DNA of 64,000 bases from Promethearchaeota archaeon. Its GTDB lineage: Archaea; Asgardarchaeota; Lokiarchaeia; Sigyniarchaeales; SOKP01. Positions 43,635-58,050 of this stretch are shown here, piece by piece. The stretch spans positions 125,716 to 189,715 of the forward strand of contig JAHLWS010000082.1 of the NCBI GenBank assembly GCA_019057795.1, read 5' to 3'. A model generated the notes under the pieces. It saw only the letters and a list, made by a program, of their open reading frames with translations. It was not told where the DNA came from and ran no database searches. A program made the translations under genes and the position numbers. Numbering within the stretch: the first letter of the stretch is position 1; each line of letters opens with the position of its first letter.

Positions 43635-46600
43635 TTATTCTTGAAATAGTCTCTTATTCACTTCTCTCGCATTAAAAAAACCCTTATGAAAGAGTAAATC
43701 TGCAATATCTTCATACTGAACCTTGAAATCCTGGGTCTCATGTTTTCTACTTATTTCCTTAAGAATATCTATTATAATACTTTCAGTATTAGTATATAGC
43801 CATGTTAGGGGTTTTCCTTTTAATAATTTAATGATAATCCTAAGAACTCCAAAACTATTTAGTTCAATATAATTCAACAATATTTTTAAAATGAAATGAG
43901 GAAAAATATCTAAATTCCCTTTTGTTAGATCTAAAACTTCATCTAATAATTGGAGGTAAATATCCTCAACATCTAATTTTTCAAACAACAATCCATACCA
44001 GTGAAATTCTTTAAATTTTTCTTCAGAGGTTAAACCTTCATCAGATTTTGCTTTCCTTATCCTGAATTCCCATAATTCCATAATCCTCTCAATAATTTCA
44101 TCCTTTTTATCTAATTCACTTGCACGATCAAAAACTTTTATTGTATGCCACATAGCTCTTGAACGCAATTCAGGAGTTGCGTTTGAAAAAAACAGTCTTA
44201 TAATGGAACCTGCTTGTAAATCTTCGATTGCATTAACAAATAAAAGTACAATGTGATATGCTAAATTTTCTAATGCTCTTTCAGTGTATAAAGTGCTTGA
44301 CATATCAACAATAGCAGTTAGGTAATGATCATACATATGGCTATATATGTATCCATTTAGATTATTATACGAAATATAACTCTCCCATGCGATTTTCCAT
44401 ATTTCTTTATTATCTACTGAAAAAATGATAGAAATTTTAGAAGTTGCCCAATCTTTATTTAAGTAAAAAATATCAAAAAGTCTATATGATATAATAGAAT
44501 AGTCAATAATGGCAGTGTCTGTATTTGGGTCTAGAATTTCTTCTAGTTTTTCTTTTACCTCGGGTACCATCCTATCATTTTCATTTAGACTGAAGAGTTT
44601 AGCACAATACAAAGCATATGCTAGAAAAGTTCTTAATACAGATCCTCTAAATGTATTTATAGAAAATATGACATAATCTTCATACCCTGAATCTTTAATA
44701 TCAAATAAATCTAATTCTGGAACGCTTATATCAAAGGAATAAGAAATAATTTCCCATATTTTGCTAATAATTTCTGTGTTAATTGTAAGGTCATCGCGAC
44801 TGAGAATCTCTCTCAAAAACGTAAGCATTGCTTTCCAGATATCCAATTTACTAGAATCTCCGAGGTCATACTTGTATTTATTAAAAATCTCGATTATTAC
44901 TTGGATGATTTCGAGTGCATTAAACTCAATTCCGTCTTTAATAGCGTGCTTATAACCTTCAATTATATATGGAATATATATTATAGGAATATCTTGAAAG
45001 TCCTTTATGAGCTGCTTATATTTTGAAGGATTTTTTGTAATCACTTTACTTATAAAGACACCTAATCCATCTTTAGAAGTAAGAAATTCATTATCACCTG
45101 GACTCCAGTCATTTAAGTATCTAATAAGTTCATGAATAGATAAATTTTCAATTTGTTCGATTGTCAATGGTGATCCTGAAAAAAATCTTGGTTGTTGTGT
45201 TAATTTTTCCTTTTCAGAAGGTTTAACCTTTATAGTTGAGGTCATTAACTCATTATAAATTTCTTTTAAATCCGAGGGAAGATGTGTTTTTAATGGTTCT
45301 AAAATACTTTTTAACCAATTTGATCTAGTGCGTTGCTTCCACTTCTGAAATTCGGTTTCATTTGAAAAATCCTCTATTTTATAGGGGTATTTTAAAAAAT
45401 CTGGTCCATCTCTTAACCAATTAAAAATTAATAATTTTTCCTCTTCAGAAAGTTTAAGAAAATGATTACATAATAGCTCATGGTATTCAATCCAATAAAT
45501 ATTATCTTCAAAAAATTGTTTATTAGTAAGACTGGTGTATAAATTACTTTCTAATTGCTTAGGATATAAGTTAACCAAATATAGTTCGATTCTTCTAAAA
45601 ATGGTCCATTTAAATTCAGAAAGAACTTTAAAATTAGAAATGAGAAGTACATTACTCTCTTCAGCTATTTTTTCATAATAATGTAAAATTAGATTTATTA
45701 GATAATTTTTAGTATCTTTTATCGCATGCAAACGAGAAACAGAATCAAGTGATCTCCTCCATCTTTCAGATTTATCTTTATATGTATCATTTTCAATATA
45801 GAATTCCGAACTTAATTTTATATCTAATGAAGAGCTGATTATTCGTATGAATCTATTTAAAGAATTTTCAATCTCAATTTCTATAATATTGGTAATGAAA
45901 TCCTCGAAATCAGAGAGTAAAAAATGAAATTTGTAGTCAATATTTCTGTTTTCTACTTTTATTGCCGGTTCTTCTGTACTAAAGATAATTTTAATTAAAT
46001 TATAAGCTACATCCAGTTCTTCTTCTAATATAAATTTATTAACCATTTTCTTTAAAATGACATATTCTTGAATTGAAGAATAATATTTTATCCATTTTTC
46101 AATAATTGGCAGTGCATTCTGCGAGATTTTCACAGGCATATTGTACAAACATTCGAAAAGAGGTCTAAATATTCTGTAATTCTTAGTATTTTCAAGATTT
46201 TTGATTACATTAAATACTTTTTCAGGAATAAGGTGAGATATCCTTATTAAATAATTTACAGGGGGCCAAATAGAAATCATTAAGAAGCCTTCTATTGATT
46301 CTGCTTCAGGTTCAGAAAACAAATTCCTTTTTTCCAATAGATCAAACCATTTAGAGGAAGAAAGTCTCGTAAAGAAATATTGTGAATGAGTAGGATGATT
46401 TAATAGTTGTAGCAATTTTTTTATATGAATTTGTTCAGGAACATCAATTTCTAATAGATCATCTAATTCTTGTAAAATTTCCTTATTCGGTTTTAATACT
46501 TCATACACAATATATTCAAATTCGGTTAGATTCTCCTCAAATTCAATATCTTTAGTAGTTATATCATGGCTTGCTAACTTAGAAAAGTATTCACAAAGAT

Positions 46601-47405
46601 CTCTTAACTTATTAAATAATGATGATATCCTTTCAAAAGCTGGTTTTGGGAGCAATTCAGTATTTTTTATGAATCCATCTTTTAAATTGCTTAACATTTT
46701 ACAAATATACAAGAGTGAATTTGCTGATTGAGAAAATCTATTTACATGTTTCTCATTTTTAAAGGTTAATTTTGCACCTTTATAATTTTCTGCAGCAATA
46801 TCATCTAGTTTGAGTAACCTAGAAATTAGTTTATTTTCCCTGATACCTGTTAATTCCTCGGGCTTTTCTAAGTTATCTAGTAATTTAGAAATAATATCTG
46901 CTGGTATAATTAAATCTGAATAAGTCCTCCTAATTTCGGGAAATTGATCAAGAAATCTTTTAATCTCTTCAGCACCCCAAATATGAATATTTGGAATGAC
47001 TTTTTTGAACTTAGGTAATATTTCATTCTCAATTTTATCTTTTGTGCCTGTTTGATAAACTGGAGAGAGAGATACATTCGTTATAAGAATGTAATTATCA
47101 CAAGGGTATTTGTATTTGTTTATAATTTTATTTAATTCATCATCAATATCTTGTTTAATTGCCTCTCTTGCTTTTTCCATCCCAATTTGATCTATATCAT
47201 GAAATTTTGCTTGAAATATCCATTTGCCATTCCAGCGTGCAGGTTCAGAAGGATATGGTGCTTCACCTTCGAATGTGGCTTCTCGAGATCCATCCTTACC
47301 CATTCCAAATACTTTAGCGCCTGGGCCTATTACCCTTTGAACTAAGGCTTGAGATAAGAACTCAAATTCTTCTGAGCCTAATTTATTAAGATTATATTTT
47401 GGCAT
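43635..47405 (-). CDS. Large protein: N-terminal restriction endonuclease-like domain plus long alpha-helical region
   Basis: FEFLSQAL...GKDGSREATF...IFQAKF PD-(D/E)xK variant; no P-loop found. Confidence 0.7.
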   Translation of the reverse strand: MPKYNLNKLGSEEFEFLSQALVQRVIGPGAKVFGMGKDGSREATFEGEAPYPSEPARWNGKWIFQAKFHDIDQIGMEKAREAIKQDIDDELNKIINKYKYPCDNYILITNVSLSPVYQTGTKDKIENEILPKFKKVIPNIHIWGAEEIKRFLDQFPEIRRTYSDLIIPADIISKLLDNLEKPEELTGIRENKLISRLLKLDDIAAENYKGAKLTFKNEKHVNRFSQSANSLLYICKMLSNLKDGFIKNTELLPKPAFERISSLFNKLRDLCEYFSKLASHDITTKDIEFEENLTEFEYIVYEVLKPNKEILQELDDLLEIDVPEQIHIKKLLQLLNHPTHSQYFFTRLSSSKWFDLLEKRNLFSEPEAESIEGFLMISIWPPVNYLIRISHLIPEKVFNVIKNLENTKNYRIFRPLFECLYNMPVKISQNALPIIEKWIKYYSSIQEYVILKKMVNKFILEEELDVAYNLIKIIFSTEEPAIKVENRNIDYKFHFLLSDFEDFITNIIEIEIENSLNRFIRIISSSLDIKLSSEFYIENDTYKDKSERWRRSLDSVSRLHAIKDTKNYLINLILHYYEKIAEESNVLLISNFKVLSEFKWTIFRRIELYLVNLYPKQLESNLYTSLTNKQFFEDNIYWIEYHELLCNHFLKLSEEEKLLIFNWLRDGPDFLKYPYKIEDFSNETEFQKWKQRTRSNWLKSILEPLKTHLPSDLKEIYNELMTSTIKVKPSEKEKLTQQPRFFSGSPLTIEQIENLSIHELIRYLNDWSPGDNEFLTSKDGLGVFISKVITKNPSKYKQLIKDFQDIPIIYIPYIIEGYKHAIKDGIEFNALEIIQVIIEIFNKYKYDLGDSSKLDIWKAMLTFLREILSRDDLTINTEIISKIWEIISYSFDISVPELDLFDIKDSGYEDYVIFSINTFRGSVLRTFLAYALYCAKLFSLNENDRMVPEVKEKLEEILDPNTDTAIIDYSIISYRLFDIFYLNKDWATSKISIIFSVDNKEIWKIAWESYISYNNLNGYIYSHMYDHYLTAIVDMSSTLYTERALENLAYHIVLLFVNAIEDLQAGSIIRLFFSNATPELRSRAMWHTIKVFDRASELDKKDEIIERIMELWEFRIRKAKSDEGLTSEEKFKEFHWYGLLFEKLDVEDIYLQLLDEVLDLTKGNLDIFPHFILKILLNYIELNSFGVLRIIIKLLKGKPLTWLYTNTESIIIDILKEISRKHETQDFKVQYEDIADLLFHKGFFNAREVNKRLFQE

Positions 47406-47718: not shown

Positions 47719-48510
47719 CTAAATAAAAGCATATTTAGAATTATTAATAAGTTTATGGAGAAAATGTGCTATACCTAAATAGCTAATTTCAACTGTTTTT
47801 TCTTTTTTATCTTTAGGATTTGGATGAATGTTCAAAGCTGAAATTTTATTTAGTTTTTGGAGATAACCATTTAAAGATCCTCTAGATAAAGACTCATTCC
47901 TTTTATTTTCTAAAGCTTGCTTAATTTCTTCTAATGAATCATACATTTTTCGATTATACAATAACGGATTATCATTAAAAGATTGTTCTTGCTTGAAGAA
48001 ATCAAGACAATTTTCATAAACACCAAAAAATAACTCTAGAAATTCGAACTGTTTAACTGATATCAGTGGAAAAGGAATGGTAGGTAAATTCATATTCGAG
48101 TAAATTCCCACTTCTTCACTTCCTTCGTATATGAAATCACCGTGAATAATCCTTGTATTAGTTATAGAACAAGCTATATATAACCAAATAACCATATATC
48201 TCAATCCTCCAGATATATTTACCGTAACATTATCGAATCCTTGAAGTTTTTGCTGGTAAATAAAGTGTGTTAATTCTGCTATCGGTTTTGTTTGAATATG
48301 AAAGTCGAATTCAACAGTTTGAACAAAGATTTTACGTTCCTCATAATATTTTATTAATTTATTGAGATTTTTTTTTGCTTCAGGTGTACCGGATAGAGGT
48401 TGTTTTTCCGTAATTAAGGTTATTTTATGGATAATCTCCTTATCAATAGAATAAATAAGTTTTTCTGGTAAATGTCCCACTAAAACAATTTGATTGTAAT
48501 TTCCATTCAT
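47719..48510 (-). CDS. Csa3/DUF6293-like CARF-domain winged-helix transcriptional regulator
   Basis: N-terminal IVLVGH strand, VNISGGLRYM CARF motif, C-terminal SRGSLNGYLQKL...KTVEISYLG wHTH. Confidence 0.75.
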   Translation of the reverse strand: MNGNYNQIVLVGHLPEKLIYSIDKEIIHKITLITEKQPLSGTPEAKKNLNKLIKYYEERKIFVQTVEFDFHIQTKPIAELTHFIYQQKLQGFDNVTVNISGGLRYMVIWLYIACSITNTRIIHGDFIYEGSEEVGIYSNMNLPTIPFPLISVKQFEFLELFFGVYENCLDFFKQEQSFNDNPLLYNRKMYDSLEEIKQALENKRNESLSRGSLNGYLQKLNKISALNIHPNPKDKKEKTVEISYLGIAHFLHKLINNSKYAFI

Positions 48511-48591
48511 GAGTAACTATTTTTTCTTTATATAAATCTAAGTTTATATATTTCATTAAAATTATTATTTATAAATTAATAACATTTTTTA

Positions 48592-48603
48592 TAAACATGT
48601 TTA
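48592..48603. promoter_or_regulatory. Perfect palindrome TAAACATGTTTA in the divergent promoter region
   Basis: Lies between the TATA-like box of the regulator (48529-36) and that of the operon (~48626-40). Confidence 0.4.
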
Positions 48604-48692
48604 CTTTTTTTTAGATATATATATGAAAAAGTATATAAACGAACAAATTCACTTTGTGACATGTATTAAGAGATAATAAAAGGCGACCGGTT

Positions 48693-48884
48693 ATGAGTTT
48701 AGATAATTTAATAATGAGAAAAAAGGAAAGTAATTTGAAATTATTTAAAACAACTAATGGAAAAAAATTTAATGAGATAAAGGTCAGTCATGATTTAAAT
48801 AATAATGAATATATAATCAAATTAAAGACAATTTTTTTGCTTTTTCGCTATAAAATTGAAATAAGGTGTGAAAATGGGCGCTGA
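48693..48884 (+). CDS. Small hypothetical protein, possible first gene of the operon
   Basis: ORF track; overlaps the next start. Confidence 0.35.
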   Translation: MSLDNLIMRKKESNLKLFKTTNGKKFNEIKVSHDLNNNEYIIKLKTIFLLFRYKIEIRCENGR

Positions 48885-51489
48885 AATCTCTTTTCCGTCG
48901 GGAAAAATCCCTATATCAACGTTAGAAAGGTATTCTTATTGCAAAAAACAAGGGATTCTCTCGATAAGAAAGAAAGAAATAAGAAAAAAAGACACAAAAA
49001 AAAAAGTTATAGGACGAATCCTTCACGAAGTTTTTAAGAATTTTCACGAAGAATGGACAGATATTATGTATAGCCGCCGTGAAAAACGATGTGGTATTAA
49101 CCGTTTAAAATTAATCCTCGAAGCAGCTGTGGACCAAGCAAGGGTAACAATGGAAAGCGATCCATCGTATTTGGCCTATGAAGCTCCACTCAATAAAGGT
49201 TTTAAGAGGATGATGGAGGGTCGGAACGGATTTGTGTCTCAAATTAGCAACGCTGCCAGAAAACTCGCAAAAAATAATGATCTTTTTAGATCTGATGAAC
49301 TACCTCGAACTTATTTCAAAGGAGAGCCGAAGTTTGAATGGGATGTAGGATTAGAACATTCTCAGCTATACGGAAGAATCGATTGTTTGGTTGAAAAAGA
49401 ACAAGAACGCGAATTTTTTATATGGGAGTTCAAAACTGGAATTGTTCCCGACGAACCTTTTGAAGGTCACGTCTTAGAAGCGGTTGGGTATGCTGTTGTA
49501 TACGAACAAGAAAGCGAAATGAAGTGTATAGGACTAAAAATCCTTTATTACGGCGAAAAGGAATTTAATATAGCGTTCACCGATTTCCATAGGGATAAAG
49601 TTAATTCCCAAATCCAAGAACTGTTTGATTACGAAGAAAAAGGAGATATTCCTCACGTTTTAATGGGTAGTAAATGTAATGAATGCGATTTTTATGATGA
49701 TTGCGTTAAGGAAAGCAAAGTTATACAATTGTCTGGAGCAGAAGAAGACATCTCCGAAACAATCGATTCGGATTTAGATTTGGAGAAAGAAGAACAAGAA
49801 TTAGAAAGTTTTGAAGAGACGGTAACTGAATCCGGTGAAATAGAAAAAACAACTCCAACACCAATACAAAAAGAAGTGAAATCAACAACAACTAAGAATG
49901 ATAAACAAGCTATTTCTACTCCAAAAATGTTAGCAGATAAGGAATTTGTTCCTAAAGAAGCTATTGGGATCGTCATACAATCGGAACAACGCGGATACTT
50001 GTTATCTACAGAAAAGAGCAATCTGCTCTCAGGTGCGATAAAGCAAGAATTTCAAAGGAAGTTGTATCCTGGTCAGGTTCTGATAACAGCGAACGAGAAA
50101 ATAAAAGAAATGCCATCTGCCATCGTAGAAGTGAAAGAAATAAAATCCTTTCCTAAGACGCTCTCCGCCCCGTTTCGCAAGATTGAAATGTTCAATATTT
50201 TGATCGAGACTTCTCCTTTTATGTATTACGAAAATCAGCGGTATTCAAAAGTTTTGTTTCCAGCTAATTTTTCCAGTCATTATTTTAGACTTCCTTCTAA
50301 ACCAGAATTGATGAGAATCATGAATTTGTTTGGTGAGGGGATCAATTTAGGATTAGTCACTTACGAAATGTTAGAAAATGAATTACCCGACATGGAACTT
50401 ATTTATAAATACCCGTTCTCGTTTAAGGAAACGGGGTATAAAGGGATATTTGTTGTTGGTTCTCCTGGAAAGGGAAAGACTAATTTATTAAAAATTCTAA
50501 TCAATGGCATATCGCAATATGTCGGAACAAGAGATGGACTGCCTCCAGCTGTTATAGTATTAGATATCACAGGGCAATTTGGTCAGCTTGATAAGCCCAC
50601 TAAATATGCTACAACCTTTGACGAGGAACTTTGGAAATTATTGGATATGAAAATAGTGAATAAATTAAAAGTATTTAAGATTATACATGATTGTGGCGAT
50701 GGAACGCACACACTATCGTTAAACGCCATAGATCCCGAACTAATTAGTTTATTGTTTCCAGAGTTGCCCCCCACTTCTTCCACGAATTTTAAACGGATGG
50801 TTAAGATGATATTCAAGGATTATCCCGCAGTCAATTATGAGAATTTTGCTAACAAAATTAACGAAATCATACGACGAGAAAGCAGCACGCTAAACTCTCA
50901 AGTTGCTAAGGCAATACAAGGGGCAATAACTAATGGACCCATTGATATTTTTGATCAAGGAGGTAAAGTATTACAAGTAAAGGATATTTTAGTACCTGGT
51001 CAAGTATCTGTCATCCAAATCGATCACATTGTCGATAAAATGCCGGTTTTATTATATTTACTTTTGATGATTAACAGAAAGAAGATTTACGAAAACGATC
51101 AAACACCCGTTATAATGGTACTAGACGAAGCTCACGAGCTATTTCCAAAAAGTGCTAATCCCGGAGAAAAAGAATATTTGCGACGGGTTTCCCAGAGTTT
51201 AATTCGAATCGCTCGACGCGGAAGGAAAAAGCACTTTGGTTTAATTTTTGCATCTCAACAACCCCACGACATAATACCTGAAATTATTGGAGTGTTCCAA
51301 ACTAAAATTATTATGGGTTTAGAAGCAACTTCAGGGAATTGGATAAAAGATACGCTTGGTAGAGAATATGTGACTTTGATATTTAGTCTTGGTCAAGGAT
51401 ATGCTCGAATTTGGAACGCAGAACTCCATAAGGGGACGTTAGTTCCGTTATTTATCCCAAAAGCACCTAATAAACACGAAGAGGATTAG
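48868..51489 (+). CDS. Cas4-like Fe-S PD-(D/E)xK nuclease fused to HerA/DUF87 ATPase
   Basis: YSYC..., GRILH, GRID, EFKTG, CNECDFYDDC; acidic linker; GSPGKGKT, LDEAH, RRGRK..ASQQP. Confidence 0.85.
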   Translation: MKMGAEISFPSGKIPISTLERYSYCKKQGILSIRKKEIRKKDTKKKVIGRILHEVFKNFHEEWTDIMYSRREKRCGINRLKLILEAAVDQARVTMESDPSYLAYEAPLNKGFKRMMEGRNGFVSQISNAARKLAKNNDLFRSDELPRTYFKGEPKFEWDVGLEHSQLYGRIDCLVEKEQEREFFIWEFKTGIVPDEPFEGHVLEAVGYAVVYEQESEMKCIGLKILYYGEKEFNIAFTDFHRDKVNSQIQELFDYEEKGDIPHVLMGSKCNECDFYDDCVKESKVIQLSGAEEDISETIDSDLDLEKEEQELESFEETVTESGEIEKTTPTPIQKEVKSTTTKNDKQAISTPKMLADKEFVPKEAIGIVIQSEQRGYLLSTEKSNLLSGAIKQEFQRKLYPGQVLITANEKIKEMPSAIVEVKEIKSFPKTLSAPFRKIEMFNILIETSPFMYYENQRYSKVLFPANFSSHYFRLPSKPELMRIMNLFGEGINLGLVTYEMLENELPDMELIYKYPFSFKETGYKGIFVVGSPGKGKTNLLKILINGISQYVGTRDGLPPAVIVLDITGQFGQLDKPTKYATTFDEELWKLLDMKIVNKLKVFKIIHDCGDGTHTLSLNAIDPELISLLFPELPPTSSTNFKRMVKMIFKDYPAVNYENFANKINEIIRRESSTLNSQVAKAIQGAITNGPIDIFDQGGKVLQVKDILVPGQVSVIQIDHIVDKMPVLLYLLLMINRKKIYENDQTPVIMVLDEAHELFPKSANPGEKEYLRRVSQSLIRIARRGRKKHFGLIFASQQPHDIIPEIIGVFQTKIIMGLEATSGNWIKDTLGREYVTLIFSLGQGYARIWNAELHKGTLVPLFIPKAPNKHEED

Positions 51490-51503
51490 GGGAGCGACTA
51501 TAT

Positions 51504-52880
51504 ATGTTAAAATTCCTGCCGCTCGGAGGAGGGAACGATATAGGAGCAAGCTCGTATCTCGTGCAGATCAATCGATTCAACTTCTTATTGGACGCAGGAT
51601 TAAGACCAAGGAGCTTTAAAAATACGCCTAAATACATTAAAATGTTTGAATTAATCGAGGATTGGTCCCAAATCGATGCGGTCTTTATAAGCCACCCCCA
51701 CCTCGATCATGTGGGCTCTCTACCTAAAGTGTTTGAAGCCAATCCAAAAGTCCCTATTTTTGTTCCTGAACAAAGTTTACCATTAATAGAAGTGCAGATA
51801 TATGGATCTTTAACTTACCAAAAGCGAATCAAGAAATACGCCGAAGATTATCTAGGAGTAGAATATTCAATCGACTTAGTATCGAATTGTCTATCAAACA
51901 TAAAAGAAATCGCATATAATAAGTTAACAAAAATAAAAAAGACCAATGTAACCTTTGAATTTTGGCCCGCAGGACATATTTTAGGGTCAGCGAGCATATT
52001 TATTAAAACGAGAAAGGGCAGCCTTGTATATACGGGAGACGTTTCTACCCATGAAAGGCCCTCAATTCCCGATCTATCTTATCCTTCTCGAAAGGTGGAT
52101 CTATTGATTATGGAAAGCACTTATTTAAGTTCCAATCACGAGATATCACCGCAAGAAGGGTTCGATCAATTATATTTAAAAGTAAAGGACATTACCGAAA
52201 AGGGAAACCACGTTCTGATCCCCAGTTTTGCTTTAGGTAAGGCTCAAGACATTATCAAGATGTTTATCGAGCGTAATAAAGCAGAAGATAATCCCGTTCC
52301 CATTTATTTAGACGGTTTGGTAAAGAAAATTACTCGGATTTATAGCAAAGTGTTAGGTGAATCCCTGTTTTTTAGCTTGAAGGACGGTTCGTGCAACTTT
52401 ATTTCGGGTATACATAATGATGTGAATGAATATAAAAAGTTTTTAGAGCGTCATCCAGGGATAGCTATTATTTCAAGTTCTGGTATGCTCCTAGATGGGA
52501 GCAAGTCCGCTCGATGGGCAGAGGCCATCCTCCCATACGAGGGAAACGGTTTATTCTTTACTGGTTATCTCGACGAAGAATCTCCAGGAGCGAAGCTATT
52601 AAAGTGCGTCTCCGAAAAAGTAATATCTCTTAACGGTGAAATTATCCCACTTAACGCACATATAGATAGATTCTATATTAGTACTCATTCTTCTGCGTCT
52701 GAATTGGCTAATCTCGTTGAGATGGTAAAGCCTAAAGCCGTCGTGTTAGTACACGGAAATAATCCGGCGCAAAAAATTGCAGAATTTCAACAAGCATGTG
52801 AGAGAAAAATTAACAGAAAATTACCAATTATAAAATCTATAAATGAAGAAATGATAGAATTAGGTGAAATGTTTGAGTGA
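51504..52880 (+). CDS. MBL-fold beta-CASP nuclease (CPSF73/aCPSF-like)
   Basis: LGGGNDIGAS, SHPHLDH, AGHILGSA, TGD, ESTY, SSGML, STH, LVHG. Confidence 0.9.
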   Translation: MLKFLPLGGGNDIGASSYLVQINRFNFLLDAGLRPRSFKNTPKYIKMFELIEDWSQIDAVFISHPHLDHVGSLPKVFEANPKVPIFVPEQSLPLIEVQIYGSLTYQKRIKKYAEDYLGVEYSIDLVSNCLSNIKEIAYNKLTKIKKTNVTFEFWPAGHILGSASIFIKTRKGSLVYTGDVSTHERPSIPDLSYPSRKVDLLIMESTYLSSNHEISPQEGFDQLYLKVKDITEKGNHVLIPSFALGKAQDIIKMFIERNKAEDNPVPIYLDGLVKKITRIYSKVLGESLFFSLKDGSCNFISGIHNDVNEYKKFLERHPGIAIISSSGMLLDGSKSARWAEAILPYEGNGLFFTGYLDEESPGAKLLKCVSEKVISLNGEIIPLNAHIDRFYISTHSSASELANLVEMVKPKAVVLVHGNNPAQKIAEFQQACERKINRKLPIIKSINEEMIELGEMFE

Positions 52881-54051
52881 AGAGCTATTAAACCTTGTTT
52901 ATGAATTGAACGCTAAATGCCTTCAAAAATTAGAAGATTTAGACGAAGAGACTAAAGATAAAAATAACCATGAATACATTATCATGAGAAATTATGTCCA
53001 GAAAAAAGATTTTTATCCTAAAGATTTGACAAAAGCTATTAATCAACCGCAAAGAGTCGTCCTTAATATGGTTCGAGATATAGGCTTTATCCATTTTAAG
53101 AATAGACGATTATATGTCCAGAGGAAATATTTAGATTGGATACGATTGGTGGTCAAGGATGTCATCATTTTCTTTAACTATCCAATAAACAAAAAAATGA
53201 ACCGGGGTATCGATTATGTTAATTCATTTATGAAAAAGAAGCAACAAATCAAAAATTATAAAATAATACTATTAAACGCCTTCGAGTCGGAAGGACTTTT
53301 ATTATTCCCGATTGAGTTACTAAACGAAATGAAGGTGATACTTAAAAACGCAAGTTGGGGTGTGTGTATGTATTATTTTAAAGAATTATACGAAATTTAT
53401 CTTAAAATGTACCCAGAACTCGATTACCAAAGTGTACAATCAGACGATATGGATCTTTCTGAACCAGATGAAACTGATACTGAAGAAGTACTTGATGACA
53501 ATGCAGAACAACTTGAAGCTGAAATTTCCATTAATCCAAGAGATTTGATGGAACAAAATCAGAAACTAAATAACGAACTTAGCGAATCTAGAGCGGTGTG
53601 CGATTTTCTTACTATGCAATACGACGATCTAATGGTATCAATGGATAACTTGAAGAAGGTTTCGACCGAGCAAGATTTTAGAAAAGTGTTTTTGGCGTTT
53701 AATTCTATTGAAAATAACAATGTGCTGGACGCTTTCTTTATCGCTAAATCAACTTTAGATACATTAAAAAGTTCCGGTTGGGAGCCCTTTCCACCTGAAC
53801 TTAAATCAATATTGTATATTTTTGATCTTTTTGCAGAATTCTTTAATAGACAAGCCCTTATCACTAATTATAAGTTAGGAGAAGAGGTATTAATAACCAT
53901 AGAAAACATCTCTAATTTTGAATATAAGGGTCAAGAATTAAAAAAAGGAATGGAAGTGCTAGCAAGAGTGCGATCCCCAGCTTGGTATTATCAGGGAAGA
54001 TTGATTTCAAAAGCGAGCGTTTTAGAAATTAAAGGTGGAGGAAAAGAATAA
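52864..54051 (+). CDS. Coiled-coil protein with GrpE-like C-terminus
   Basis: Acidic linker, long coiled coil, terminal VRSPAWYYQGRLISKASV comparable to the GrpE beta domain; directly before Hsp70. Confidence 0.55.
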   Translation: MKCLSEELLNLVYELNAKCLQKLEDLDEETKDKNNHEYIIMRNYVQKKDFYPKDLTKAINQPQRVVLNMVRDIGFIHFKNRRLYVQRKYLDWIRLVVKDVIIFFNYPINKKMNRGIDYVNSFMKKKQQIKNYKIILLNAFESEGLLLFPIELLNEMKVILKNASWGVCMYYFKELYEIYLKMYPELDYQSVQSDDMDLSEPDETDTEEVLDDNAEQLEAEISINPRDLMEQNQKLNNELSESRAVCDFLTMQYDDLMVSMDNLKKVSTEQDFRKVFLAFNSIENNNVLDAFFIAKSTLDTLKSSGWEPFPPELKSILYIFDLFAEFFNRQALITNYKLGEEVLITIENISNFEYKGQELKKGMEVLARVRSPAWYYQGRLISKASVLEIKGGGKE

Positions 54052-54052
54052 A

Positions 54053-56770
54053 ATGGCAGATACGACAAGAGAGTTTTATCTAGGAATCGACTTAGGTACC
54101 ACCAATTCCTCCATAGCTTGGGGGAGTGTTGGAAAAAATGGAATCTTTAAACCACGGATGGTAGACATGCAATTACCAATGGCAGACGGTTCTTGGGAAG
54201 CGAAGCAACTCTTACCTTCGTTTTTTTATTTACCGAAAGATCAAAAAGATCATGAAGTCGGGTATAAAGCCAAACAAATGTTAAAGACACAACCAGGAAG
54301 AGTAATTCGATCAATCAAGACCAAAATGGGACAGGATTGGAAAAAAACTATAGACGAGAAAGAATTTACACCTGAGGATATTTCTTCTTATATCTTGAAA
54401 CAATTGCTTATTGGAATAAAAAGAACTTTTCGAACAACTATAAACGATATTGTTGTTACGGTTCCAGCGTCTTTTGATAGTGAAATGAGAAGCGCTACGT
54501 TAGAGGCCGCGAGAAAAGCGGGAATAAAGGTTAAGAACGACAATGGGTCTCCAAGAAACATCCTATTGGACGAGCCGAGGGCGTGTCTCTATGATTTTGT
54601 TAATCGGCAAAAACAAGGAGAAATCCCCGACCACATAATAGATTTTTCAACAAAAAAACGCATTTTAGTGTATGATTTGGGAGGAGGGACGTTAGATGTA
54701 TCTTTACATGAAGTAAATTTTGAATCCCCAGAACATCCCTTAGTAAATATTGAAGATATCGCCATATCAAGGTATACGGACATCGGAGGAGATAATTTTG
54801 ACGAAAAACTTACAGATTATTTGTTTCAGAGATATTGTGAGGAATTTAAGTTAAAACTGCAAGACTATTCCGATATTGAAATCGAATGCGCTAAGATGTC
54901 TCTTTTTTATTATGTGGAGTCTTTTAAGCGAATGATTACTAACGACGCTTTACGAAGAGAAGAGATGTTTGAAGATTACGAGCCGGAAGATGTGCGTCAA
55001 TCAATAATGGCTGGATATTTGTTAGAGCAACATCCATTAAGCGTTGAATTATCTCTAAAGGAATACGAGGAGATCATGGAAGAATTTTTAGCAAAAGACA
55101 TTAAATATCCCACTACATCGAATATCGGAGAAAGAATTGGCGAAAGAAACTTGATTTCACCTGTATTAGATGTTTTAAATAAAGCGTTTAAAAAATTAAA
55201 TAGGATTGTGAAACCCGATTTAATATTACTCTCAGGAGGGATGACGAAATTGCCTATGGTTCGTAAACGATTGTCCGCTTTTTTTGGCATGGAACCTCAA
55301 ACCATTCCCGATCCAGATAAAGCTGTCTCTAGAGGGGCTGCAATTTACCATTACTACTTACATCAAGGTTACCGACCTACTGCAATATTAGCCGAATCAA
55401 TCATTCTTGAGATGAAAGACCACAAAATGCTAGAACTTGTCCCCTCAGGCGTTTCTTTACCTTACGAAGAAGAGTTTATCTTTAAAATTGGAGGCAAGAA
55501 ATACGTAGATATTCCGTTATATCGAACAGATTCATCGCACCCACTTGCGCAGCCTAGATTTAGTCTTTCTAAACTTTATCCTTCTAAAACAAGAATAAAA
55601 GCAAAAATAAATGTCAATTTACTTAAAGTAATGGAATTCCAAGCGTGGGTGAAAGAATTTCCCTCAGACAAAATTACTATTACAATTGACTTCAACAAAG
55701 ACACAGAGCAGAAAAAGACTGGTGTTGAAGTAAAGCAGCGCATCGAACCTTTCGTGGAAGAAAAAATTGAAGAATCACGACAGTTCACAAAAGAAAAAGA
55801 AAGCGATTCTCGTGTAGTGCAATATAACGAACTCGTAGAGTTTTTCCATTCGATTCCTTATACTAATAAACCTAATTATGCTAAACTTACAGAGGTAGAA
55901 ATCGTTAACTCAAGGAATATTGATCGAGTTGTCAAAGGGCTGCTTAAAATACAGAGAAAAACTCACCATAAAATAAGGGAAAAAATTATTTTGTTACTTG
56001 GAGATATTGTTTCAGAACCTCGAGTCCACGAAAATTATCCTAATGTTATCTATGGCGTTAACCAAAACATGGTTCGCTATGTGGATATGATACAAAATTT
56101 GGATAATCCAAACTCCAAAGAAATTAATATTTCAGTAAGATACGCGATTGAAACAATAGGAAAAACAAAGACCGTAGACCTACAAAGAAACATTATAACT
56201 TCCTTAATTTCTTGGGTAAAAGAACCAATCTTTCATAAAATTAGAAGTGCGATACTCACTAGCTTGGGAAAAATGCCACCTGATAACGAAATATTGGCTT
56301 TTCTGGTAGAATTTATATCAAAACCTCAGAAAAAGAACACTCTTATTCCTTCTTTATGGGCGTTAGGGAAACAAGGATCGAGAGATTTAACAAATCCTAT
56401 CATTATAGACTATATGGGGAATGTACACGAAACTATCTTACAAAAAATGGATTCTACAGTAGATTTTGAGATCATTCAATACATTTCCTACACACTGCTT
56501 GAAATATGCAAAATAAATCCAAATCATCCAGAAAATTGCGTTAGCAAAGACGCTCGAGCCGGAGTAATACAAAGAATGGAGAGTAAACTTATAAATCTCG
56601 AGAAACCCTTTAAAAATAAAAAGTTTAGCCACTTAGACAAGAAATTAAAAGACTGGGGTCGTTTTTTATCAACTCAGAGGTGGATTAATCTAACAATTCA
56701 AGCGTTAAAAGGATTAGAGTTTTCAGACGAAGACATCGAACTCTTAGACGGTTTTAGAAGAAATAAATAA
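54053..56770 (+). CDS. Atypical Hsp70/DnaK-family protein with C-terminal HEAT/ARM-like repeats
   Basis: GIDLGTTNS, TVPASF, DEP, DLGGGTLD, GGDNFD, SGGMTKLP, AVSRGAA; C-terminal AIETIGK/ILTSLGK/LWALGK helical repeats; ATG 54053 after GGAGG. Confidence 0.88.
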   Translation: MADTTREFYLGIDLGTTNSSIAWGSVGKNGIFKPRMVDMQLPMADGSWEAKQLLPSFFYLPKDQKDHEVGYKAKQMLKTQPGRVIRSIKTKMGQDWKKTIDEKEFTPEDISSYILKQLLIGIKRTFRTTINDIVVTVPASFDSEMRSATLEAARKAGIKVKNDNGSPRNILLDEPRACLYDFVNRQKQGEIPDHIIDFSTKKRILVYDLGGGTLDVSLHEVNFESPEHPLVNIEDIAISRYTDIGGDNFDEKLTDYLFQRYCEEFKLKLQDYSDIEIECAKMSLFYYVESFKRMITNDALRREEMFEDYEPEDVRQSIMAGYLLEQHPLSVELSLKEYEEIMEEFLAKDIKYPTTSNIGERIGERNLISPVLDVLNKAFKKLNRIVKPDLILLSGGMTKLPMVRKRLSAFFGMEPQTIPDPDKAVSRGAAIYHYYLHQGYRPTAILAESIILEMKDHKMLELVPSGVSLPYEEEFIFKIGGKKYVDIPLYRTDSSHPLAQPRFSLSKLYPSKTRIKAKINVNLLKVMEFQAWVKEFPSDKITITIDFNKDTEQKKTGVEVKQRIEPFVEEKIEESRQFTKEKESDSRVVQYNELVEFFHSIPYTNKPNYAKLTEVEIVNSRNIDRVVKGLLKIQRKTHHKIREKIILLLGDIVSEPRVHENYPNVIYGVNQNMVRYVDMIQNLDNPNSKEINISVRYAIETIGKTKTVDLQRNIITSLISWVKEPIFHKIRSAILTSLGKMPPDNEILAFLVEFISKPQKKNTLIPSLWALGKQGSRDLTNPIIIDYMGNVHETILQKMDSTVDFEIIQYISYTLLEICKINPNHPENCVSKDARAGVIQRMESKLINLEKPFKNKKFSHLDKKLKDWGRFLSTQRWINLTIQALKGLEFSDEDIELLDGFRRNK

Positions 56771-56988
56771 CACTATGATAGTAAAATTCTTATCTTCACT
56801 TCTTATATTTTTTGTCTTCCATTCAATCTTAAAAGATTTATTATTATTATTTGCTTTGTCTTTCCCGAAAATTTATGACTCTTTTAGGATATAAATCTCA
56901 TAATTTAATTTCTCATTTTGATGAATAATAACAATAATATAAAAGCCTCATCGCTAATAATGGCACGAACGAATCAATCTCTTTTTTT

Positions 56989-57213
56989 TTATCTAAAAAT
57001 CCTGAAGTATTTAATCCCAGTGTTAAGCCCACACACAGCCAAAAGTACGATGGACGCGACAATGACGCCAATCATCTTAGATCGATACCGCTGACCGCCC
57101 CAAATTAGGCAAATCATCCCAATTAAGAACCCAAATAAGCCCATAATCGAACCAAGTGCGATTAAATACTCAACTCCTCCTAAAACCTCTTCGAAATAAT
57201 CGAATACTACCAT
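56989..57213 (-). CDS. Small two-TM membrane protein (pilin/VirB2-like size and topology)
   Basis: Two hydrophobic segments separated by the basic loop GGQRYRSK. Confidence 0.5.
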   Translation of the reverse strand: MVVFDYFEEVLGGVEYLIALGSIMGLFGFLIGMICLIWGGQRYRSKMIGVIVASIVLLAVCGLNTGIKYFRIFR

Positions 57214-57237
57214 AATGAATAGATTTAAAAACAGGAA

Positions 57238-57292
57238 TATTTAAAAGAAAAATTATTATTAATTTTTAAGTTGAGTTTCGGGATATTGGTAA
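57238..57292 (+). repeat. Direct repeat copy 1 (~55 bp)
   Basis: TATTTAAAAGAAAAATTATTATTAA..TTAAGTTGAGTTTCGGGATATTGGTAA; matches 60072-60127. Confidence 0.85.
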
Positions 57293-57433
57293 CTTTTTTT
57301 TTGTTGTTTAAGCGAAATACTATTTGTTTTATTTAAAGGAAAAAACCTAAAAAATAATTGAACTACCTACCCCTAAAGGAGCCGGATTCTGCTTTAATAA
57401 TGGTAAAAGTAAAAAAATAAAAAAAAAAAGAAG

Positions 57434-57814
57434 TTATTTGAAGCTCTTTTCGTAATTACTTAGCCACGACTTAATCGACTCTATTGTTTTGGAATAATCG
57501 ACTACTCTGGTGTTGCCACTTGCGGTCATAGAGCCGGACACTGTTCTCTCGTTGTACATGCCTGGAATCGCTTGATATGTGGCTCGGTTACCTTGTTTTT
57601 CTGCTTCTTTCGCGATATCTACTCCTAAATCGCGCAACGCTTTAGAGGGGAAAGCTCCGCAAGGAGCAACGATCTCTGCGAATAATTCGGCTGCTTGAAC
57701 CCACGCGGGATCTTGGTATTCGTTTAAAGGTGTTTCTAATAATTCTCTAATTTTTAGAGCTATATGGTTGGAAATACCTCCTCGTACGTCAAATTTATGA
57801 TCGTCACCTGCCAT
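57434..57814 (-). CDS. Hypothetical protein
   Basis: ORF track; likely start MAGDDHK at 57814. Confidence 0.6.
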   Translation of the reverse strand: MAGDDHKFDVRGGISNHIALKIRELLETPLNEYQDPAWVQAAELFAEIVAPCGAFPSKALRDLGVDIAKEAEKQGNRATYQAIPGMYNERTVSGSMTASGNTRVVDYSKTIESIKSWLSNYEKSFK

Positions 57815-58050
57815 ATTTTTGTTGCCTCGTTTTATACTGGTAATTATATTTATCATTCATCGTTATTAATTTTCACGTCGTAATTATTTATTCTACAATT
57901 TAATTTTATTTAAAGGAAAAAAATCTTGAAAATTACTAACTAAGAAAAAAAAATTCCAAACAACTTAAAATCAAATACTACTCGATGAGATTGTTTTTAG
58001 TATTAATTTATATTTATAAAAGTTCAATATAATAATAAGACAAAAATAAG

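What the first reader, a model, noticed from the sequence alone, without database searches (positions are those of the whole stretch)
47719..56770. Candidate undescribed defence system: CARF regulator plus Cas4-HerA, beta-CASP nuclease, GrpE-like and Hsp70-HEAT operon
Seen: four large genes with overlapping or near-abutting starts and stops, recognisable catalytic motifs and SD-like RBSs, divergent from a Csa3-like CARF-wHTH gene, inside an accessory island. Known: HerA ATPases pair with nucleases or other effectors in anti-phage systems (e.g. Sir2-HerA, DUF4297-HerA), MBL/beta-CASP proteins are nucleases, and CARF domains bind nucleotide second messengers. Inference: a dedicated Hsp70/GrpE pair may sense or hold a client (viral protein, or the nucleases themselves) and license DNA and RNA degradation. 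I know of no named system combining these five components.
Basis: partly seen in the sequence, partly recalled or inferred. Interest (0 to 1): 0.92.

Follow-up and report, generated by a model that had tools for sequence, protein, structure and literature searches.

The report
Hsp70-GrpE-nuclease cassette with Cas4-HerA
An Asgard archaeon carries, in a patch of anti-virus genes, a four-gene operon that wires a private Hsp70 chaperone and its own GrpE-type partner to an RNA-type nuclease and a DNA-cutting motor; no paper I could find describes it, so it is probably a new kind of chaperone-controlled immune system.

Summary
All five genes exist at the stated coordinates with intact catalytic motifs, and the guessed "GrpE-like" gene really is a divergent GrpE.

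- **Conserved core:** three genes form a widespread module: a CPSF73/aCPSF1-type beta-CASP nuclease, a GrpE-like factor with winged-helix head, and a lidless Hsp70 with a helical-repeat tail. The GrpE-like family has 348 clusters at 50% identity. It is scattered across archaea and bacteria.
- **Local additions:** the Cas4-HerA fusion is a lineage-specific fourth gene, restricted to one Asgard-centred clade. The CARF regulator is optional, present in 3 of 7 four-gene loci with readable flanks.
- **Not a heat-shock locus:** the genome has two canonical dnaK-grpE loci, and the module was not found in 40 congeneric species.
- **Genomic context:** it usually sits among defence genes, including Dsr1-like, R-M, SIR2-HerA and DarTG/OLD. 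In two bacteria it lies in or beside type III CRISPR loci. A few copies have housekeeping neighbours.
- **Prior description:** no named system matches. The closest described part is CnuD of type III CoCoNuTs.

Defence function and mechanism are inferred, not shown. This scan had already noted the three-gene core on other DNA. New here are the Cas4-HerA and CARF additions.

The parts
47719..48510 (-). CARF-like (HFX_2341/Csa3-type) putative ligand-responsive transcription regulator, transcribed divergently from the operon. It is a facultative partner.
   Evidence: Pfam HFX_2341_N E=2.2e-7 (above cut-off) and Csa3_N E=2.5e-4. PADLOC CARF3 E=1.7e-18. Atlas neighbours are HFX_2341_N plus WHD_DUF6293 regulators. 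An orthologue sits in the same position in L031 and a non-similar CARF sits there in L001. It is absent in L002, L005, L028 and L029.
48511..48867 (.). AT-rich divergent intergenic (promoter) region containing the palindrome TAAACATGTTTA at about 48591-48602.
   Evidence: Read directly from the sequence. The repeats here do not stand out from the AT-rich background. An operator function was not tested.
48868..51489 (+). Cas4-like Fe-S PD-(D/E)xK nuclease (residues about 1-285) joined by an acidic linker (about 290-345) to a HerA-type hexameric translocase ATPase (about 350-873).
   Evidence: Pfam PDDEXK_1, Cas_Cas4, DUF87 and HerA_C. PADLOC Cas4 and HerA models. Motif positions. The fusion family has only 17 clusters at 90% identity, and all but one lie on contigs that carry the cassette. 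The catalytic D172, Walker A, Walker B and R786 are invariant.
51504..52880 (+). beta-CASP metallo-nuclease of the CPSF73 / aCPSF1 / Cas14 (RNase) type.
   Evidence: Pfam Lactamase_B, Beta-Casp and RMMBL. NCBIfam aCPSF1 E=1.3e-57 and Cas14 E=3.7e-47, both far below the equivalog cut-offs. PDB CPSF73 E=6e-39 and Cas14 E=3.5e-31, with no Artemis/SNM1 hit at E<1e-5. The catalytic motifs are invariant in 10 orthologues.
52864..54051 (+). Private GrpE-like nucleotide-exchange factor. It has an N-terminal tandem winged-helix-like domain (about 24-182), an acidic disordered linker (190-222), a long helix (225-279), a helical pair and a C-terminal beta domain (332-388).
   Evidence: AF2 pLDDT 90.5 and pTM 0.80. 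The top Foldseek hits are all GrpE. The top six VIA-align hits are GrpE at Z 7.3-8.4 over residues 222-392, and the next unrelated hit scores 5.6. 40 of 113 family members hit Pfam GrpE. The natural fusion protein P0269 joins beta-CASP to this domain.
54035..56770 (+). Divergent Hsp70. It has an intact NBD (15-443) and an SBD-beta sandwich (450-552), and its alpha-helical lid is replaced by about 340 aa of HEAT/ARM-like helical repeats (572-909).
   Evidence: Pfam HSP70 E=2.1e-37. AF2 pLDDT 89.5. VIA-align to DnaK gives Z 44.5 over model residues 12-557. K95, E180, D214, G216-218, T219 and D221 are invariant in 84 homologues. Homologues carry the HEAT_2 and HEAT_PBS Pfam domains.

Best explanation
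The locus is an expanded variant of a widespread, undescribed three-gene module, and it most likely acts as an anti-mobile-element (defence) system in which an Hsp70 ATPase cycle gates nucleases.

**Shown**
- Domain identities and intact active sites of all components.
- Strict gene linkage in the order nuclease, GrpE-like factor, Hsp70-HEAT.
- A natural fusion of the nuclease to the GrpE-like domain.
- Sporadic, cross-domain distribution.
- Frequent placement in defence islands and in type III CRISPR loci.

**Inferred mechanism**
1. The Hsp70-HEAT protein is the sensor and switch. Its helical-repeat tail and/or SBD-beta bind a trigger, such as a viral protein, a nascent chain or an RNP.
2. 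This drives ATP hydrolysis without a J-protein.
3. The GrpE-like factor binds the ADP-state NBD, as GrpE does. It carries or contacts the beta-CASP RNase-type nuclease.
4. That either delivers the nuclease to the bound target or releases it from inhibition, and nucleotide exchange resets the switch.
5. In the Asgard clade, the Cas4-HerA fusion adds an ATP-driven DNA end-degrading arm, giving combined RNA and DNA attack.
6. Where present, the CARF-wHTH protein tunes operon transcription in response to a small nucleotide ligand. That ligand may be cyclic oligoadenylate from the genome's own type III CRISPR systems.
For: **Linkage**
- The four-gene cassette is conserved in the window, L001, L002/3, L005, L006, L028, L029/30 and L031.
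- The three-gene core is present in every other locus examined: L007, L009, L010, L020-L026 and L037.

**Physical coupling**
- P0269 fuses the beta-CASP to the GrpE-like domain.

**GrpE identity**
-.

**Active sites conserved**
-.

**Accessory nature**
- The GrpE-like gene was not found in 40 other species of the genus. It was found in 9 of 400 genomes of the phylum.
- It was found in 1 of 401 genomes of the Melioribacteraceae genome's phylum.
- The host genome has two canonical dnaK-grpE loci.

**Defence context**
- Window: Dsr1-like 5.7e-46, PDC-S61-like, PDC-S10-like and a further HerA.
- L031: type III R-M.
- L001: HEPN plus a type IIG R-M.
- L002: SIR2-HerA.
- L028: type IIG R-M.
- L007: inside a type III-A CRISPR-cas locus.
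- L010: beside a type III-B locus.
- L037: integrase, Macro/DarT and an OLD nuclease.

**Type III CRISPR in the same genome**
-.

**Weak hint of expression**
- Metatranscriptome contigs of close relatives cover parts of all four genes and bridge two gene junctions.
Against: - There is no functional test of any member.
- Some copies have only housekeeping neighbours: L009, and L023/L024, where it looks vertically kept within one Asgard genus.
- The context sample is small, about 15 loci, and was not compared with a background rate.
- The RNA evidence comes from one study and from assembled contigs, which may include DNA carry-over.
- The CARF link is facultative, and none of the four core proteins has a cyclic-nucleotide sensor domain.
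Confidence: 0.55

Rival explanations
1. It is a housekeeping or stress module for RNA and protein quality control. A specialised Hsp70/GrpE pair works with a CPSF73-type RNase, for example on stalled ribosomes or nascent chains, or in RNA 3'-end processing. It has no role in conflicts with mobile elements.
For: - The beta-CASP is closest to the RNA-processing enzymes aCPSF1, CPSF73 and TTHA0252.
- The Hsp70 keeps a full catalytic NBD and a peptide-binding-type SBD-beta.
- Copies in L009, L023 and L024 have metabolic or transport neighbours.
- The module is kept in several genomes of one Asgard genus.
Against: - Distribution is very patchy: not found in 40 congeners, found in 9 of 400 in the phylum and 1 of 401 in another phylum.
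- It has spread across both domains.
- It is repeatedly placed in defence islands, CRISPR loci and an integrase-flanked island.
- The host already has canonical DnaK/GrpE.
- The recruitment of Cas4-HerA, a DNA nuclease-translocase, is hard to fit to RNA quality control.
Confidence: 0.2
2. It is an ancillary effector arm of type III CRISPR-Cas signalling. The cassette is switched on, transcriptionally through the CARF-wHTH protein, only when Cas10 makes cyclic oligoadenylates, and it has no autonomous sensing.
For: - A CARF regulator is divergently paired in the window, L031 and L001.
- The core lies inside a type III-A locus next to a Card1-like CARF nuclease (L007) and beside a type III-B locus (L010).
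- The host genome has two Cas10-containing loci.
Against: - 4 of 7 four-gene loci lack any CARF gene.
- Most loci are not near cas genes, and none lie on the window's 190-kb contig.
- No CARF or SAVED domain occurs in the four core proteins.
- The module is not listed among type III accessory families in Shah et al. 2018/19 (PMC6546367), nor in the 2025 CRISPR classification (PMC12669027).
Confidence: 0.12
3. It is part of a mobile element's own machinery, or a DNA-repair module. Cas4-like nuclease plus HerA would act as an end-resection or packaging motor, with beta-CASP as an Artemis-like DNA nuclease assisted by a chaperone.
For: - Cas4-like nucleases and HerA/FtsK-type ATPases occur in archaeal viruses (my own knowledge).
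- PHROG hits to the Cas4, HerA and MBL domains.
- The cassette's GC content (0.35-0.37) differs from the flanks (0.25-0.30).
- A Rad51-like neighbour in L029.
Against: - No capsid, integrase or replication genes lie next to the cassette in the window.
- The flanks differ between loci while the cassette stays intact.
- The PHROG hits are generic domain matches. The GrpE-like and CARF proteins have none.
- The beta-CASP carries the RMMBL domain and gave no Artemis/SNM1 match.
Confidence: 0.08

Closest known systems
CnuD / CnuCD of type III CoCoNuT (McrBC-type) systems (Bell, Makarova, Wolf, Koonin, eLife 2024; PMC11090510). This is a computational description.
   Same: - An Hsp70-like NBD/SBD followed by HEAT-like helical repeats.
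- Encoded in defence contexts and predicted to work with nucleases on RNA.
- Some CoCoNuT superoperons also carry CARF proteins.
   Different: - No McrB-like GTPase (CnuB), no McrC/DUF2357 (CnuC), no long coiled-coil protein and no HEPN domain lie in or next to this cassette.
- CnuD is reported to have degenerate Walker-A-like motifs, whereas here the ATPase residues are invariant.
- No GrpE-like partner or beta-CASP nuclease is described for CoCoNuTs.
- Direct orthology to CnuD could not be tested, because no CnuD sequence was available by reference.
Canonical DnaK-GrpE(-DnaJ) chaperone system
   Same: - Hsp70 NBD plus SBD-beta.
- A GrpE-fold exchange factor encoded immediately upstream, which is the grpE-dnaK gene order.
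   Different: - The lid is replaced by helical repeats.
- The GrpE carries an extra winged-helix head and is barely recognisable by sequence.
- No J-protein is present.
- It is welded to nucleases.
- It is accessory rather than core, since the genome has two ordinary dnaK-grpE loci.
HSP70 + GrpE themes in GAP1-N2 GTPase-centred conflict systems (Kaur, Burroughs, Iyer, Aravind, eLife 2020; PMC7159879)
   Same: It is a precedent for an Hsp70 and its GrpE being recruited as the NTP-dependent switch of a predicted conflict system. The idea of the NTPase acting as a switch between sensor repeats and effector is restated in bioRxiv 10.64898/2026.10.19.760177.
   Different: Those systems are built around TRAFAC GTPases, FNIII/DnaJ or TPR proteins and other effectors. 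None of these is present here, and no beta-CASP or Cas4-HerA is reported there.
HerA-based defence systems (SIR2-HerA, DUF4297-HerA) and the HerA-NurA end-resection pair
   Same: A HerA hexameric ATPase paired with a nuclease or other effector, located in defence islands.
   Different: - Here the nuclease is a Cas4-like Fe-S PD-(D/E)xK domain fused in cis.
- Scores against the NCBIfam anti-phage HerA equivalogs are far below cut-off (35.9 bits against 850).
- The fusion is tied to the Hsp70 module.
Cas14, the beta-CASP effector of type VII CRISPR-Cas (Altae-Tran et al. 2023, PMC10910872; PMC12669027)
   Same: A CPSF73-like beta-CASP RNase recruited into prokaryotic immunity. The NCBIfam Cas14 model matches at E=3.7e-47.
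   Different: - The Cas10-like C-terminal domain is missing: 458 aa against about 610 aa.
- There are no Cas5 or Cas7 partners.
- The score is far below the equivalog cut-off (161 bits against 800).

Membership tests
Type III CoCoNuT (CnuB/CnuC/CnuD) | McrB-like NxD GTPase (CnuB) and an McrC N-terminal DUF2357 protein (CnuC) in the operon | tested here: not met
   A Pfam scan of every ORF of 80 aa or more between 43.6 and 60 kb found no AAA_5/McrB or DUF2357 hit. PADLOC found none either. The gene tables of the other cassette loci also show none.
Type III CoCoNuT (CnuB/CnuC/CnuD) | Hsp70-like NBD/SBD followed by HEAT-like helical repeats (the CnuD architecture) | tested here: met
   The AF2 model shows an NBD, an SBD-beta and helical repeats at 572-909. 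DnaK aligns at Z 44.5 over residues 12-557. Homologues carry HEAT Pfam domains.
Type III CoCoNuT (CnuB/CnuC/CnuD) | Degenerate Walker-A-like ATPase motifs in the Hsp70 domain, as reported for CnuD | tested here: not met
   The DLGTTNS, K95, E180 and DLGGGT motifs are invariant or nearly so across 84 homologues.
Canonical DnaK/GrpE/DnaJ chaperone system | Hsp70 with NBD, SBD-beta and an alpha-helical lid | tested here: not met
   The NBD and SBD-beta are present, but the lid is replaced by about 340 aa of helical repeats. NCBIfam DnaK scores 128 bits against a cut-off of 648.
Canonical DnaK/GrpE/DnaJ chaperone system | GrpE-fold nucleotide-exchange factor | tested here: met
   The top six structural matches are GrpE at Z 7.3-8.4. 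40 of 113 family members hit Pfam GrpE, best E=1.9e-10. The window protein itself gives no direct Pfam hit.
Canonical DnaK/GrpE/DnaJ chaperone system | Core, vertically conserved housekeeping locus with a J-protein | tested here: not met
   There are two separate canonical dnaK-grpE loci on contigs C41 and C56. The module was not found in 40 congeneric species. No DnaJ domain lies in the locus.
HerA anti-phage systems (SIR2-HerA, DUF4297-HerA) / HerA-NurA | HerA ATPase with Walker A/B and an arginine finger | tested here: met
   Pfam DUF87 and HerA_C, PADLOC HerA models, and the motifs at residues 531, 751 and 783.
HerA anti-phage systems (SIR2-HerA, DUF4297-HerA) / HerA-NurA | Separate SIR2, DUF4297 or NurA partner gene, and equivalog-level similarity | tested here: not met
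   The cassette has no such partner. NCBIfam HerA_antiphage models score 26-36 bits against cut-offs of 800-850.
Type III CRISPR-Cas cOA ancillary effectors | CARF or SAVED sensor fused to, or part of, the effector, and linkage to cas10 | tested here: not met
   CARF occurs only in the separate divergent regulator. Cas10 and RAMP genes lie on other contigs, C29 and C83. Linkage to type III loci is seen only in L007 and L010.
Type VII CRISPR-Cas Cas14 | beta-CASP plus a Cas10-like C-terminal domain, with Cas5 and Cas7 partners | tested here: not met
   The protein is 458 aa and matches only positions 5-435 of the 612-position Cas14 model, at 161 bits against a cut-off of 800. No RAMP genes lie on the contig.
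Csa3 / HFX_2341 CARF-wHTH regulators | N-terminal CARF-like Rossmann domain | tested here: met
   Pfam HFX_2341_N scores 31.7 bits against a cut-off of 30. PADLOC CARF3 gives E=1.7e-18.
Csa3 / HFX_2341 CARF-wHTH regulators | C-terminal winged-helix DNA-binding domain, and ligand binding | tested here: inconclusive
   There is no direct Pfam hit on residues 160-263. Atlas neighbours carry WHD_DUF6293. Ligand binding cannot be tested with these tools.

The most novel reading that the evidence does not exclude
An Hsp70 chaperone cycle, with its own GrpE-type exchange factor acting as adaptor, serves as the sensor and switch of a prokaryotic immune system that licenses a CPSF73-type RNase. In Asgard archaea it also licenses a Cas4-HerA DNA shredder. 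This would be a new mechanistic class, chaperone-gated nuclease immunity, shared by archaea and bacteria and plugged into type III CRISPR loci in some bacteria.
Probability: 0.4. Interest if true: 0.9.

Novelty: categorically new. Interest (0 to 1): 0.78.

Why it matters
If it is confirmed, this would be the first immune system built around an Hsp70/GrpE cycle. It would add a chaperone ATPase to the known switches of prokaryotic immunity, which so far are STAND, ABC, McrB and HerA.

- **Testable link:** it would make it possible to test whether cells detect infection by sensing protein-folding load or nascent viral proteins.
- **Nuclease recruitment:** it shows that CPSF73-type RNases have been recruited to immunity more than once, Cas14 being the other case.
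- **Asgard arsenal:** the Asgard variant documents modular growth of such a system through capture of a Cas4-HerA motor and a CARF regulator. [quoted passage not shown]
- **If it is housekeeping instead:** an Hsp70-coupled RNase would still be a new RNA or protein quality-control machine.

Tried and rejected
**Named-system search**
- PADLOC HMMs gave only domain-level hits (Cas4, HerA, CARF). The beta-CASP and Hsp70 gave marginal hits only (PDC-M48B, LmuA, PDC-M61B).
- NCBIfam has no equivalog for any of the five proteins.

**Literature**
- Nine full-text searches were run, and PMC11090510, PMC12669027, PMC10910872, PMC6546367, PMC7159879, PMC12642450, PMC3710099 and PMC6514570 were read.
- None describes a beta-CASP + GrpE-like + Hsp70 module or a Cas4-HerA fusion.
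- The DnaK-EACC1 protease fusions of PMC12642450 are unrelated.

**Searches that failed or found nothing**
- A profile of the GrpE-like family against PDB sequences found no GrpE. It found only a weak winged-helix-like match to topoisomerase I.
- The search for related loci with the GrpE-like alignment failed because no stretch was conserved enough.
- No tRNA or Rfam element lies in 43-64 kb.

**Weak or ambiguous observations**
- The palindrome and repeats in the divergent intergenic region do not stand out from AT-rich background.
- RNA runs showed no cover on the CARF gene, and this is not interpretable.
- A contig joint skipping 47983-57916 has only 23 nt on one side and is not trusted.
- PHROGs gave no viral hallmark.
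- A small ORF I suspected upstream of Cas4-HerA was mis-framed and was dropped.

Full report
**Observation**

The region holds five ORFs exactly as described: one on the minus strand (47719-48510) and four packed on the plus strand. The four are 48868-51489, 51504-52880, 52864-54051 and 54035-56770, separated by a 14-nt gap and then two 17-nt overlaps.

Domain assignments were checked with Pfam, PADLOC and NCBIfam.

- **Minus-strand gene.** It is a CARF-like protein of the HFX_2341/Csa3 type. Pfam HFX_2341_N is above its cut-off and PADLOC CARF3 gives E=1.7e-18. Language-model neighbours are HFX_2341_N plus winged-helix regulators.
- **Gene 1.** It fuses a Cas4-type Fe-S PD-(D/E)xK nuclease to a HerA ATPase through a very acidic linker.
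  - Nuclease motifs: C25, D172, E187-x-K189 and C270xxCx5C.
  - ATPase motifs: Walker A at 531, Walker B at 751 and RRGRK at 783.
- **Gene 2.** It is a beta-CASP metallo-nuclease with every catalytic motif intact. Its closest relatives are RNases: aCPSF1 (E=1.3e-57), Cas14 (E=3.7e-47), CPSF73 (PDB E=6e-39) and TTHA0252. No Artemis/SNM1-type match appeared at E<1e-5.
- **Gene 4.** It is an Hsp70 whose catalytic residues are invariant across 84 homologues.
  - The AF2 model (pLDDT 89.5) shows an NBD, an SBD-beta sandwich and then about 340 residues of helical repeats in place of the lid.
  - DnaK superposes at Z 44.5 over residues 12-557.

**The "GrpE-like" gene**

Gene 3 has no Pfam, NCBIfam, PADLOC or PHROG hit of its own. 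A profile search of 1.84 billion representative proteins found 348 related clusters, sharing a conserved C-terminal stretch of about 160 residues.

- 40 of 113 aligned members hit Pfam GrpE, with a best E-value of 1.9e-10.
- With that alignment, AF2 gave a confident model (pLDDT 90.5, pTM 0.80). It has a long helix at 225-279, a helical pair and a small beta domain at 332-388.
- The top Foldseek hits are all GrpE.
- The six best VIA-align matches are GrpE/GrpEL1 chains at Z 7.3-8.4 with 138-161 residues aligned. The next unrelated match scores 5.6.
- The N-terminal 180 residues look like tandem winged helices (Stn1, MYST and MntR-type matches at Z 4-5.6). They are followed by an acidic disordered linker.

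One family member, P0269, is a natural fusion of an MBL/beta-CASP nuclease to the GrpE-like domain. This argues that the nuclease and the exchange factor act together physically.

**What the conserved unit is**

I read gene neighbourhoods for homologues at decreasing identity.

The four-gene cassette recurs intact in L001, L002/L003, L005 (a Promethearchaeota MAG), L006, L028, L029/L030 and L031. Hsp70 identity in these ranges from 36 to 95%.

More distant Hsp70-HEAT proteins (29-34% identity) always sit behind a GrpE-like gene and an MBL/beta-CASP gene, but without Cas4-HerA.

- Bacterial loci: L007 (Melioribacteraceae), L009, L010 (Oceanotoga) and L037.
- Asgard loci: L020-L026.

The nuclease active-site residues are invariant even in the most divergent of these.

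The Cas4-HerA fusion family is tiny, with 17 clusters at 90% identity. All but one lie on contigs that carry the cassette. The exception is a 28%-identical Odinarchaeota protein in a different context.

A FastTree of the Hsp70s, with the host's own DnaKs as outgroup, gives the following.

- All Hsp70-HEAT proteins fall in one clade.
- The presumed four-gene group forms one sub-clade (SH-like support 100), next to the Asgard three-gene forms.
- Caveat: membership of that group was verified by context for only about nine of its 15 rows, and several branches are long.

The simplest reading is a widespread three-gene core that acquired Cas4-HerA once in an Asgard-centred lineage.

The CARF gene is facultative. 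It is present in the window, in L031 (an orthologue) and in L001. The L001 protein has no BLASTP similarity to the window's. It is absent from L002, L005, L028 and L029.

**Core heat-shock locus? No**

- The genome has two ordinary dnaK-grpE loci on other contigs.
- The GrpE-like gene was not found in 24, and then 40, other species of the same genus. Solid matches occurred in only 9 of 400 genomes sampled from the phylum.
- In the phylum of the Melioribacteraceae genome it was found in 1 of 401 genomes.
- These are samples and MAGs, so the correct wording is "not found", not "absent".
- The host encodes a eukaryote-type actin (Pfam Actin E=2.8e-132), so it is an Asgard archaeon.
- Near-identical DNA occurs in cold-seep and marine-sediment metagenomes from several studies.

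**Context**

The window's 26-64 kb stretch is a low-GC island (0.25-0.30, against 0.35-0.37 for the cassette). It is rich in defence-type genes:

- a Dsr1-like giant protein directly upstream (PADLOC E=5.7e-46);
- a PDC-S61-like gene;
- a PDC-S10-like gene;
- a second HerA.

Other four-gene loci have different neighbours. L031 keeps the downstream genes but has a type III R-M system in the upstream slot.

| Locus | Neighbours |
|---|---|
| L031 | type III R-M |
| L001 | HEPN and a type IIG R-M |
| L002 | SIR2-HerA and a helicase |
| L028 | type IIG R-M |

The three-gene loci vary more.

| Locus | Context |
|---|---|
| L007 | inside a type III-A CRISPR-cas locus |
| L010 | beside a type III-B locus |
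| L037 | between a tyrosine integrase and Macro/DarT plus OLD-family genes |
| L009, L023, L024 | ordinary metabolic or transport neighbours |

The defence association is therefore frequent but not universal, and I could not compare it with a background rate.

**Regulation and expression**

The host has two Cas10/RAMP loci on other contigs. A cyclic-oligoadenylate input to the CARF regulator is therefore possible, but it is only inferred.

Metatranscriptome contigs from one study cover parts of all four genes at 90-99% identity. They bridge the Cas4-HerA/beta-CASP junction and the beta-CASP/GrpE-like junction. This is a weak hint of expression, because assembled contigs cannot prove a single transcript or exclude DNA carry-over.

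**Mechanism (inferred)**

The parts fit the sensor, NTPase switch and effector logic known from STAND-type and related conflict systems. Aravind and colleagues have noted that an HSP70 can take the switch role (PMC7159879; bioRxiv 10.64898/2026.10.19.760177).

1. The Hsp70-HEAT protein binds a trigger through its repeat tail and/or SBD-beta.
2. Trigger binding stimulates ATP hydrolysis, with no J-protein encoded in the locus.
3. The GrpE-like factor binds the ADP state of the NBD and brings in or releases the beta-CASP nuclease.
4. Nucleotide exchange resets the switch.

A titration variant is equally compatible: Hsp70 holds the nuclease until viral clients compete it off. In the Asgard clade, Cas4-HerA would add processive DNA degradation. 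None of these steps has been tested.

**Comparison with known systems**

- **CnuD of type III CoCoNuTs (PMC11090510).** This is the only described defence component with the same architecture (Hsp70 plus HEAT). Its defining partners, McrB-like CnuB and DUF2357 CnuC, are absent here. Its ATPase motifs are reported as degenerate, whereas they are intact here.
- **Canonical DnaK/GrpE/DnaJ.** The module shares folds and gene order with this system, but not the lid, the J-protein or the housekeeping distribution.
- **Cas14, SIR2-HerA/DUF4297-HerA and cOA ancillary effectors.** Each shares one feature and fails the others (see the membership table).
- **Literature.** Nine full-text searches and the catalogues of type III accessory genes and CRISPR-linked modules mention no such module.
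- **Earlier notes of this scan.** They had already recorded the three-gene core in at least six other genomes and reached the same closest-known system. I reached the core independently before reading them. Their statement that the core occurs in over 80-100 gut, rumen and oral bacterial species was not tested here.

**Verdict**

This is a real, recurrent, undescribed cassette in a defence island. Its conserved heart is three genes, Cas4-HerA is a lineage-specific add-on, and CARF is optional.
- I rate defence by chaperone-gated nucleases at about 0.55. The rivals are housekeeping RNA/protein quality control (0.2), a purely CRISPR-dependent ancillary arm (0.12) and a mobile-element or repair function (0.08).

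Noticed in passing
window 43635-47405 (-): A 1256-aa protein whose body (residues 310-1222) matches PADLOC Dsr1 at E=5.7e-46. Its head is not SIR2: there is only a weak Aga_TIR-PNTD hit on residues 3-178 and no Pfam hit. It may be a Dsr1-like sensor with a swapped effector domain.
   Followed up: no
window 60828-61586 and 61615-63573 (+); L031 15590-18335: A 252-aa gene followed by a 652-aa HerA/DUF87 ATPase (mad8-like, E=2.5e-13). The same pair lies downstream of the cassette in L031. It may be a separate two-gene HerA system.
   Followed up: partly
window 41020-42636 (+) and 59119-60045 (+): A Metallophos plus RNase_H_2 protein (PDC-S10-like, E=8.4e-16) and a PDC-S61-like / PD-(D/E)xK protein (E=6.4e-13). 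Both are further candidate defence genes in the island.
   Followed up: no
window 56909-57275: Contig depth in sediment metagenomes jumps to about 2200, against about 100 for the flanks. This suggests a short multicopy or widely shared element. It overlaps a 74-aa ORF (56989-57213, minus strand) with two hydrophobic stretches. There is no tRNA or Rfam hit.
   Followed up: partly
window 47983 / 57916: One metagenome contig joins these two points, skipping 9932 nt that include the whole cassette. It could be an empty-site allele, but only 23 nt lie on one side of the joint, so it is unreliable.
   Followed up: no
protein P0269 (from the representative library): A 771-aa natural fusion of an MBL/beta-CASP nuclease with the GrpE-like domain. 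Pfam GrpE gives E=1.5e-5 on residues 605-761.
   Followed up: partly
L007 700-19400 and L010 5600-18600: The three-gene core sits inside a Melioribacteraceae type III-A CRISPR-cas locus, between a Card1-like CARF nuclease and a Cas_NE0113 gene. In Oceanotoga it sits directly beside a type III-B (Cmr) locus.
   Followed up: partly
L037 3885-22643: The three-gene core is flanked by a tyrosine integrase, a Macro-domain gene, a 1587-aa DarT-containing protein and an OLD-family (AAA_15 plus TOPRIM) nuclease.
   Followed up: no
L027 8382-11760 (Odinarchaeota MAG): A distant Cas4-HerA fusion (28% identity) without the Hsp70 module. It is followed by a rhomboid-like 292-aa protein and lies near a 1354-aa SLFN_AlbA_2 protein.
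   Followed up: no
own genome, contigs C41, C56, C29, C83: Two canonical dnaK-grpE loci and two type III CRISPR-cas loci are present. The assembly has 7.5% estimated contamination, so one copy of each could be foreign.
   Followed up: no
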